Shown here: positions 736 to 3,700 of the stretch, one piece after another
How the letters are laid out: each line of letters starts with the position of its first letter
Position numbering within the stretch: the first letter of the stretch is position 1
Origin: Podarcis cretensis
Lineage: Eukaryota
Reading direction: 5' to 3'
Assembly: GCA_951804945.1 (NCBI GenBank)
Contig: OX638152.1
Coordinates: forward strand, 39,122,001 to 39,186,000
DNA length: 64,000 nucleotides
Translations under genes and position numbers: made by a program
The notes under the pieces: generated by a model
The model's database searches: none
Told to the model about the DNA's origin: nothing
What the model saw: the letters and a program-made list of their open reading frames with translations, nothing else

Positions 736-3700
736 GTGATTATAGATTATAATATCTAGGAACACAAGTATTTAGTTCATCAAAGACAAGCAGGAATGTA
801 ATTTCTCAATTTGCTTTAATTTTTGCATCCCGTTGTGTAGTCTGTGATTCCTTTTACTTTATTCCTGTTTTACTTCTTTGTTATTTCTCCTATTAATCTC
901 TTTGTCTTAAATTGAGCAGCCCAGATTCTTTTGATTGTACTGCAGTGTGACTTGGTGTGCTGACTGAAATGAGCAGAAACAGTTTTCAGCTAAGGCAAAG
1001 CCACCATTGGACAGCATGGATGGCTGATATTTGTGAATACTAATCACTATTGTTTTATGCAGGGTCATCCTCCACTTGGACAAAGCAACAGCTGTGGCAG
1101 CGTACTTCCTCATTCTTTGGGAACTATGACCAAAGAGTCTGAACCAAGGAGGATGCATAAAGGTAAGGCTGTTCAAAAATTATCCTCATACACTGCAACA
1201 CAATGCCATTGAAAAGGAAATCCCATTTCACACTAATCAGATTTTCTTTTTAATTTGATAAGTGGAAAATGCATTCATTCAGCTGCAATGCTTTTTTGAG
1301 TCTTAGATTAATTAAGTTTTCTTGATTGCACACCAAAATGGGAAATGGCATGATTCTATTTGAATTATTTTATACACAAACCACTCTGCTCTTGCATAAG
1401 TGTGTGCATAATACTCTCAACAAGTGGGCAATATCTTTCCCAGTGCAACCTTATTTGTGTCTGCTCAGAAGGAAGCCTCCTTGAATATGCTTAGGATTGA
1501 GCTGTGCATAGAATTATAGCTTTAGACTGATTAAAAGCCGGGCACCCTGTTTAGAAAACGGATAATCCCGTGAAACTTCATGGTTCTTGATCCTGAATGT
1601 TATTCTGACTGTTCCTTGAGCGTACCAGCCTTCCAGAGCCTGATGCTCTTACCTAAGATGTGTTTGTTCAGTCTATTGTGTGGGAAGATTTGTGCATATC
1701 CATTCCCTGTGCACTACAATGTGCACATTATATAATGCATTTATATTGCATAATATAAAGCAATTTAAAGTGACAGCTTGGACCTTAAATACCTTTTCCT
1801 TCATTACGACTGGTCCATTAGATGCCCCAAAATGCCTGTACAGTCGTACCTTGGAAGTCGAATGGAATCCGTTCCAGAAGTCCATTCGACTTCCAAAACG
1901 TTCGGAAACCAAAGCGTGGCTTCTGATTGCAGCGTTTGGGAGCCAAAACGTTTGAGAACTAAGCTGTTTGAAAACCAAGGTACGACAGTAGTAACTTCTT
2001 CTTTCTTAATGCTTAAGATAACTACTGCAATACTTGTATTGAGTCTTAATGAGTCTTCATTTGACATTAATTACCTACTACAGAAACTATTGGCTAAGCA
2101 AAGTTTTATGAGTTGGTGATTGATTAATATTTGGACTAACCCAGATGCTGTCAGACTCCAACTCCCATCAGCCTCAGCTGGCACAACCAATGGTCAGGGA
2201 CGATGGCAGCTGTATTCCAATAGCAACTGGAGCTACTGTTCCCCCATCCCGGAACTAAACTATTAATGGAGAAAACCTGTTTCTTAGCTGTGAATCTTCT
2301 GCAACCATTCAGATGATTGCAGCATTACTCCTATGCTAATGCACATTAAAGGGACCTAAAGAGAACTACATAAAGGCAAACCTTAGAAGACTTTATTTCT
2401 GCAGCTGCCTTTTTGTCTGTGGACTAAGGCAAGGTGAATTGGGCTCTTCACATATGCAGCAGTAATCAAGAAGTGTAATCCTAAACATGGAATTTATTCC
2501 TGGTAAAGGCCTGTAGGATTGCAACCAAAAAACTGATGCTTAAAATTCTTAAAAGTAATTCAGACTTTTAGATTGTGATGTGTTCTCCCAAGAGAGCTAG
2601 GTAACTTTAAAATTATTTCTTATAACTGAAGCACATGTGCATTTATTCGAAATTAAGTTCAAATAGGACTGTAGCCCAGAATAAACTGTACTAAATAAAA
2701 TTGTGCCCCAATACATAGATTAGCCAGCTTATCTTTGCCATGTCTGCATTCTGTGCTTGTAGCTCTTTTTAGCCTATCTAATTATTTTATCCTGCTTTTA
2801 AATGTCTATAGCATAACACTTTTTTTATTTTTTTATGTCTTATTTAAATCAGGAAAAAGCAGAAAAGGTATGAGGAACGTTCTTTGTGTGGCTGTATATG
2901 TTTGCTTTTGTGGTTGTCACAGAAAAAAGGGACACCATCAAGTCATTCAGAACCAGCAAATGTGGAAATTCTAAAGTTCCTTTAATTTTTTTTCTGGTGG
3001 TTGTGGTGATTTTTGTAGCTCCCTTCAAGCTACATTCATGTGCAAGCAGCCTGGCTTCTACCATTTTGTCTGCCTATCTATGTGATGGGGAAATGTCTGC
3101 AATGGAGAAGTCTGCTGCATGTGTGAAGACTTGCATGATCTAGAACCCTGTGGAGTCAGGGTTCCACATCACGGAGAGAGCTTAACTGCATTTTCAGCAA
3201 GCTTCCCCATTGCAGTCAATCCCCCAACATGTGAATGGCAGGGGATGAGACAATGGAGACAGCATAGCTCCACGATCCCCATTATAAGATACAATCTCAT
3301 GTTGGAAAACACCTGAAGAGGGCTTTAAAGAATGAATGTTTGAAGATAAACTTTGCCCACTGCTGCTGCTGCCAGCTTGGATTTGCAAATGAAACTTGAA
3401 ATGAAACACAATACTGTAAAGGTTAACCACCTGATTCCTTCTGTATTGTCTAGTCTCAAATATTTATTTTCATGCAATTCCTCTGCTGCTGACTATAAAC
3501 CTGATGTTTCTTCAGAGTCAATCTGGTTCATATGTCAGCAAAGAGGAGTCACATGAAAATAAATAAGAGAATTCACAGATTCAAGATTCTGTTCACACAC
3601 TTGGCAGTACAGCCACGCCAACCAGTTTTAGAAAACGTGCTAACCCACAAAATTGTGTAGCATCCTGCTTTCCTGTAACACATGAGTCTTTACTGCTCTT

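What the first reader, a model, noticed from the sequence alone, without database searches (positions are those of the whole stretch)
2790..3140. Candidate 15-nt microexon (GKSRK) in PHLDB2 with downstream RBFOX motifs
Seen: in the 5.45-kb phase-1 intron (1163-6612), 2853-2867 has a long T-rich tract and CAG acceptor, an AAG|GTATGA donor, a length divisible by 3 and no stop, converting RRMHK-GYNN to RRMHK-GKSRK-GYNN. TGCATG occurs at 3116 and 3132 (also 4143, 5216), and the flanks lack recognisable repeats. Known: RBFOX binding downstream of an exon promotes inclusion, and 3-27 nt microexons are often neural or muscle specific. Inferred: a tissue-regulated basic insert in LL5-beta upstream of the final coiled coil and PH domain that standard annotation would easily miss.
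Basis: partly seen in the sequence, partly recalled or inferred. Interest (0 to 1): 0.7.

Follow-up and report, generated by a model that had tools for sequence, protein, structure and literature searches.

The report
Ancient PHLDB2 microexon; RBFOX link unsupported
This lizard gene for the cell-cortex scaffold LL5-beta holds a 15-letter optional exon that is also found in birds, turtles, crocodilians, mammals and a chimaera and is already in many gene annotations; it adds five mostly basic amino acids that likely tune the protein's charge, and the proposed RBFOX control sites are not kept in the one bird compared.

Summary
The exon is real and old, but not new. 2853-2867 is the best small in-frame AG..GT candidate of 199 in the intron. 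The 5-residue insert is in 47 of 425 fetched proteins from 21 species: lacertids, anoles, geckos, alligator, turtles, horse, bats, Callorhinchus. A bird-like contig keeps the CAG acceptor, 15-nt length, 13/15 bases and GTATGA donor. The TGCATG pair exists (+249, +265) but its region does not align to the bird, which has none within 600 nt; only about 50 nt on each side of the exon are conserved. No junction read was seen here, and the tissue is unknown. The insert lies in a predicted disordered linker 58 residues after the MINK1 site. Two RefSeq models read through the donor and stop, losing the PH domain. This scan found the same exon before in camel (e1-8044506). No paper on its function was found.

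The parts
601..735 (+). PHLDB2 coding exon holding the MINK1 consensus site (D[ST]Lx[RK][RK])
   Evidence: Sequence; spliced to 1063 across a GT..AG intron in contigs of 3 of 4 runs; motif from bioRxiv 10.1101/2021.09.02.458712
1063..1162 (+). Upstream flanking exon, ends in phase 1
2800..2852 (+). Acceptor region: distal T-tract, 39-nt AG-free zone, CAG; no TGC nearer than -60
   Evidence: aligns to bird better than 99.7% of random intron pairs
2853..2867 (+). 15-nt microexon, 14 of 15 purines, encodes GKSRK
   Evidence: orthologous insert in 47 proteins of 21 species; bird genomic copy 13/15 identical
2868..2945 (+). Donor GTATGA and conserved proximal downstream block, likely an intronic splicing element; also the start of the read-through frame
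   Evidence: +7..+56 aligns to bird better than 99.5% of random pairs; read-through frame 17 of 26 residues identical to the gecko model P0191 (hand count output)
2972..2974 (+). Stop codon of the read-through frame if the donor is not used
2995..3008 (+). Three ESRP-type hexamers (TGGTGG, GGTGGT, GTGGTG); not conserved in place in the bird
3116..3137 (+). Two TGCATG (RBFOX) hexamers at +249 and +265; region not conserved in the bird
3558..3891 (+). Four AATAAA hexamers, possible intronic polyadenylation signals (untested)
5873..5908 (+). Second cassette exon, 36 nt, 12 residues; weak AAG acceptor here, CAG in the bird
6613..6820 (+). Downstream flanking exon
   Evidence: 100% identical to lacertid PHLDB2 proteins

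Best explanation
2853-2867 is a frame-preserving optional microexon of PHLDB2 (LL5-beta), kept from cartilaginous fish to mammals, that is mostly included together with a second small exon and adds a G-K-x-K/R-K patch to a predicted disordered linker, where it likely tunes local positive charge. Shown: the exon, its splice sites, its conservation, included and skipped forms in annotated proteins, and conserved flanks of about 50 nt each side. Inferred: inclusion depends on the distal T-tract, the purine-rich exon body and the conserved block just after the donor rather than on the TGCATG pair. Inferred, about 35%: the extra lysines extend the basic stretch at the end of the upstream exon and strengthen electrostatic binding to acidic lipids or acidic partners near the PH domain. 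The tissue and the regulator are unknown.
For: Top candidate of 199. Insert in 47 of 425 fetched proteins, 21 species; the same GKSKK in Callorhinchus, five turtles, horse and four bats (names). Positions 1, 2 and 5 are fixed and position 4 is always K or R, while position 3 varies (S, G, A, N; V in the bird), which fits charge better than a phospho-site; the search pattern itself required G-K-x-[KR]-K. A blastn of window 1-14000 against the bird-like contig L002 hit, inside this intron, only the 15-nt and 36-nt exons. Flanks -53..-4 and +7..+56 beat 99.7% and 99.5% of 3000 random intron pairs. Among 240 scored reptile and bird proteins 119 have no insert, 83 the 12-residue, 32 both, 5 a 7-residue form, 1 the microexon alone (11 of 251 not scored). 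Residues 621-625 of P0135 lie in a segment (435-709) with pLDDT under 50 and no secondary structure. The insert is outside the solved fragments (P0011 429-506, 734-786) and the PH domain (1130-1226).
Against: No junction into or out of 2853-2867 was seen in contigs of 4 runs of a related organism; the upstream-exon contigs align to 1164 in all four, which fits the form that skips both small exons (my inference; contigs drop rare variants). Protein records are gene models, not reads that I saw, and isoform counts are not expression levels. No fetched P. muralis or P. raffonei protein has it (0 of 21). No candidate was found in the teleost-like intron L003, and lungfish, coelacanth and axolotl records lack it. 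The charge function has no direct evidence. Only one non-squamate intron was compared.
Confidence: 0.8

Rival explanations
1. RBFOX proteins bound at the TGCATG pair drive inclusion in neurons or muscle.
For: Two TGCATG at +249 and +265, about 1% by chance. TGCATG is the one hexamer enriched downstream of alternative human micro-exons (PMC4317164 passages). No other of the 9 PHLDB2 donors tested has one within 300 nt.
Against: +232..+281 aligns to the bird no better than random (91% of random pairs score as well). The bird has no TGCATG within 600 nt, the nearest at +802, and 10 in 15.9 kb, like the background rate here. PHLDB2 is absent from the list of 145 brain-specific micro-exons in PMC4317164. 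Caveat: RBFOX sites can turn over or act from a distance (recalled).
Confidence: 0.2
2. An ESRP or CELF-type protein binds the UG-rich downstream intron and promotes inclusion, for example in epithelia, where LL5-beta anchors microtubules.
For: All three ESRP hexamers named in PMC4566030 lie at +128 to +141, as in 1.8% of 244-nt stretches. TGT is enriched in the first 150 nt (2.3% of stretches). Downstream ESRP binding enhances inclusion.
Against: I noticed the motif by eye before testing it. +107..+156 is not conserved in the bird, whose cluster is at +530. One hexamer has a T>C change in two runs of a close relative (position 3004). No PHLDB2 row in the supplements of two Esrp studies.
Confidence: 0.15
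3. The site is a composite exon: when the donor is ignored the transcript reads on, stops at 2974 and is polyadenylated in the intron, giving a functional LL5-beta without its last coiled coil and PH domain, ending in a basic then hydrophobic, Cys-rich tail.
For: RefSeq models of a gecko (P0191) and a turtle (P0182) do exactly this. The gecko tail matches the window's frame at 17 of 26 residues without gaps (hand count). Tails are hydrophobic (top 2-5% of 412 GT-started open frames), and four AATAAA lie at +691 to +1019.
Against: Lizard against bird: of codons 3-12, 8 are non-synonymous, 1 synonymous, 1 identical, which points to constraint on the RNA, not the peptide. Tail lengths vary (16-35 residues). 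UG-rich DNA gives Val and Cys by itself. Such models can come from retained-intron reads (recalled). No RNA end was shown here.
Confidence: 0.12
4. The exon is a vestige or chance AG..GT in this lizard.
For: No junction seen; absent from 21 fetched P. muralis and P. raffonei proteins.
Against: Intact splice sites; annotated in P. lilfordi, Lacerta and Zootoca; conserved in the bird genome and Callorhinchus.
Confidence: 0.04

Closest known systems
Annotated PHLDB2 isoforms with the 5-residue insert (P. lilfordi P0011/P0135, Lacerta agilis P0016, Zootoca P0018, Anolis sagrei P0052, Alligator sinensis P0059, Chrysemys P0117, horse P0346, Callorhinchus P0424)
   Same: Same gene, position, phase, length and G-K-x-K/R-K pattern.
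   Different: This window has Ser at position 3 where the three other lacertid species have Gly.
Human PHLDB2 21-nt micro-exon, chr3:111677121-111677142, listed among 310 novel micro-exons in PMC4317164 Supplemental File 1
   Same: Same gene; its length fits the 7-residue exon that follows GKSKK in mammals (the match is my inference).
   Different: It is a different exon from the 15-nt one. Whether it is the short form of the 36-nt exon or a third exon (as e1-8044506 says) I could not test.
SRRM3/4-dependent neural microexons
   Same: Size under 27 nt, frame-preserving, deeply conserved, pyrimidine tract set back from the 3' splice site.
   Different: No UGC near the acceptor (nearest -60 here, -46 in the bird); no evidence of neural enrichment.
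RBFOX-enhanced micro-exons (PMC4317164)
   Same: TGCATG in the downstream intron.
   Different: The motifs are about 250 nt away and not conserved in the bird; the published enrichment was for conserved hexamers in the immediate 3' flank.

Membership tests
Alternative microexon | 3-27 nt internal exon with canonical AG/GT sites, frame-preserving | tested here: met
   15 nt, CAG and GT, no stop
Alternative microexon | Conserved length and splice sites across species | tested here: met
   Bird genomic copy; 5-residue insert in 21 species
Alternative microexon | Both included and skipped transcripts exist | tested here: inconclusive
   Met in gene models of relatives; no inclusion junction seen in 4 runs of contigs
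RBFOX-enhanced exon | TGCATG in the downstream intron | tested here: met
   +249 and +265
RBFOX-enhanced exon | The motif is evolutionarily conserved | tested here: not met
   One bird compared: none within 600 nt, region not alignable
RBFOX-enhanced exon | Binding (CLIP) or loss of inclusion on RBFOX depletion | not testable with these tools
   No such data; one search listed no relevant paper
SRRM3/4 neural microexon | UGC between branchpoint and 3' splice site | tested here: not met
   Nearest TGC at -60 (lizard) and -46 (bird); 51 of 231 human neural microexons also lack it (PMC12871342 legend); the branchpoint itself was not mapped
SRRM3/4 neural microexon | Neural-enriched, SRRM-dependent inclusion | not testable with these tools
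   No tissue-labelled reads; not in the brain-specific list of PMC4317164
ESRP-enhanced exon | UGG-rich hexamers within 250 nt downstream, none upstream | tested here: met
   3 downstream, 0 upstream
ESRP-enhanced exon | Conserved motif and response to Esrp loss | tested here: not met
   Not conserved in place in the bird; no PHLDB2 row in supplements searched, which is weak

The most novel reading that the evidence does not exclude
The microexon doubles as a switch: use of its donor keeps full-length LL5-beta with a basic patch, while ignoring it gives, by intronic polyadenylation, a PH-less LL5-beta that keeps the ELKS- and CLASP-binding regions and ends in a basic, Cys-rich hydrophobic tail, uncoupling cortical microtubule capture from PIP3. 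Gecko and turtle gene models show this form.
Probability: 0.12. Interest if true: 0.6.

Novelty: already known. Interest (0 to 1): 0.3.

Why it matters
A five-residue insert kept, often letter for letter, from a chimaera to bats must do something for LL5-beta, the scaffold that ties microtubule ends to the cell cortex, and I found no paper on it. The lizard-bird comparison narrows the likely control element to about 50 nt on each side of the exon, which makes a minigene test cheap. The exon itself is already in public annotations and was found before by this scan, so its value is as a small, testable lead.

Tried and rejected
RNA: no RNA holder is on record. Contigs of 4 runs (RNA status guessed, tissue unknown) showed the 735/1063 junction but no joint to 2853; contigs cannot show absence, and the junctions to 5873 and 6613 were outside the stretch laid, so they remain untested. 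Literature: 'PHLDB2 + microexon' gave 1 unrelated paper; searches listed nothing on this exon (listings only). Supplement searches for PHLDB2 gave no row in PMC4566030, PMC12064062, PMC9303857 (12 of 18 files), PMC5703972, PMC7821500 (tables may use other ids). PMC13059153 has 14 PHLDB2 rows; the 2 seen are other exons, 12 were not seen. Two papers sought by id were not held. VastDB could not be consulted, so a tissue pattern may be on record there. A third small exon in the lizard intron: no AG/G..G/GTR candidate of 9-27 nt other than 15 nt (strict filter). A conserved phospho-site or classical NLS in the insert: rejected, position 3 varies and the spacing does not fit (recalled consensus). 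The mammal set is biased to the 7-residue form by its query, so its counts are not frequencies. Searches anchored on the downstream exon miss truncated forms. The PH domain was poorly modelled, so only the low confidence of the linker is used. One search ended in an error after printing the insert table. Searches used patterns that missed many proteins and are superseded.

Full report
Setting. The window holds the 3' half of PHLDB2 (LL5-beta) of a lacertid lizard: exon 6613-6820 is 100% identical to Podarcis, Lacerta and Zootoca proteins. I did not fix the species.

Observation. Of 199 stop-free AG..GT candidates of 3-60 nt (multiples of 3) in intron 1163-6612, 2853-2867 scores best and the 36-nt exon at 5873-5908 second (rough score, donor frequencies recalled). 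The exon is 14 of 15 purines. Its immediate flanks are single-copy.

Is it an exon? Three lines say yes. GKSKK is identical in Callorhinchus, five turtles and the mammals. The 425 include short fragments and unrelated hits, so the fraction is not a frequency. (2) Genomic DNA: a metagenome contig, L002, whose exons are 145 of 149 residues identical to penguin PHLDB2, has the exon at 6856-6870 with CAG, 15 nt, 13 of 15 bases and GTATGA. A blastn of the first 14 kb of the window hit, within this intron, only the two small exons. None of 14 fetched bird proteins shows the insert, so bird annotation may miss it. (3) Flanks: -53..-4 and +7..+56 align to the bird better than 99.7% and 99.5% of random intron pairs; +57..+106 and -153..-104 are borderline (3.6%, 4.6%); the other six windows are at background (ten windows tested). 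Against: contigs of four runs of a related organism gave no joint to 2853, and their upstream-exon pieces end at 1164, which fits the form that skips both small exons (my inference). So use in this species is inferred from relatives, not shown.

What it is spliced with. Of the 47, 32 reptile records pair it with the 12-residue exon, 10 mammal records with a 7-residue exon, 3 have it alone (Elgaria P0249, Callorhinchus P0424, P0425) and 2 read through the donor. The 12-residue exon is often included without it (83 of 240 scored). A human 21-nt PHLDB2 micro-exon is listed in PMC4317164 Supplemental File 1.

Regulation. The TGCATG pair is a 1% event in the window, but its region does not align to the bird and the bird has none within 600 nt. 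The enrichment in PMC4317164 was for conserved hexamers near the exon (passages), and no PHLDB2 exon is in its brain-specific list. A UGG cluster with the three ESRP hexamers named in PMC4566030 (passages) is about as unusual (1.8%) and just as unconserved. The SRRM3/4 UGC is missing near the acceptor, which does not exclude a neural exon (PMC12871342 passages). What is kept is the distal T-tract and a U-rich block right after the donor; I take these as the likely control elements. One bird is a thin comparison.

Protein context. In P0011 the order is: solved LL5-beta fragments at 429-506 and 734-786 (probably the ELKS- and CLASP-binding pieces of PMC11297316, passages), the MINK1-type site at 866, the insert at 924-928, the last coiled coil from about 1017 and the PH domain at 1130-1226. 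MINK1 phosphorylation of human T894 promotes CLASP2 binding (bioRxiv 10.1101/2021.09.02.458712 passages); equating it with residue 866 rests on the consensus motif. AlphaFold2 gives pLDDT under 50 over 435-709 of P0135, which holds the insert at 621. The insert adds 3 basic residues after a basic exon end; the 12-residue exon adds 2 more, ahead of a linker with 10 acidic residues. Charge tuning is therefore my working mechanism, at about 35%, with no direct test.

A side finding. RefSeq models of Paroedura (P0191) and Pelodiscus (P0182) use the microexon acceptor, ignore the donor and end 22-26 residues later. The window's frame stays open for 35 codons to 2974 and matches the gecko tail at 17 of 26 residues (hand count); four AATAAA follow at +691 to +1019. 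The lizard-bird codon pattern (8 of 10 codons non-synonymous) argues that the constraint is on the RNA, so I give a functional PH-less isoform about 12%.

Verdict. A real, gnathostome-old microexon, already in public annotations and already found by this scan in camel. No paper on its regulation or function turned up or in the supplements searched; unseen supplements and VastDB may hold tissue data. Interest 0.3.

Noticed in passing
window 2868-2974 and 3558-3891; proteins P0191, P0182: Gecko and turtle gene models read through the microexon donor and stop, giving a PH-less protein; the window has the matching open frame and four AATAAA downstream.
   Followed up: partly
window 10846-12254: The intron inside the PH-domain coding region has a GC donor (GC-AG intron).
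   Followed up: no
window 5873-5908: The 36-nt exon has an AAG acceptor behind an A-run here but CAG in the bird; turtles also use a 7-residue short form; similar peptides occur in axolotl and Callorhinchus records.
   Followed up: partly
window 601-735: The exon with the MINK1 site is skipped in some bird isoforms (P0079, P0086), which would remove that phosphorylation switch.
   Followed up: no
P0255 (axolotl), P0277 (Callorhinchus): Each has three extra residues starting with Gly at the same junction, possibly a further 9-nt exon.
   Followed up: no
L003:120-1320: The teleost-like intron shows no candidate for either small exon; the microexon may be lost there.
   Followed up: partly
window 18001-20000: GC-rich stretch (0.59) after the PHLDB2 3' end, likely the promoter region of the next gene.
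   Followed up: no
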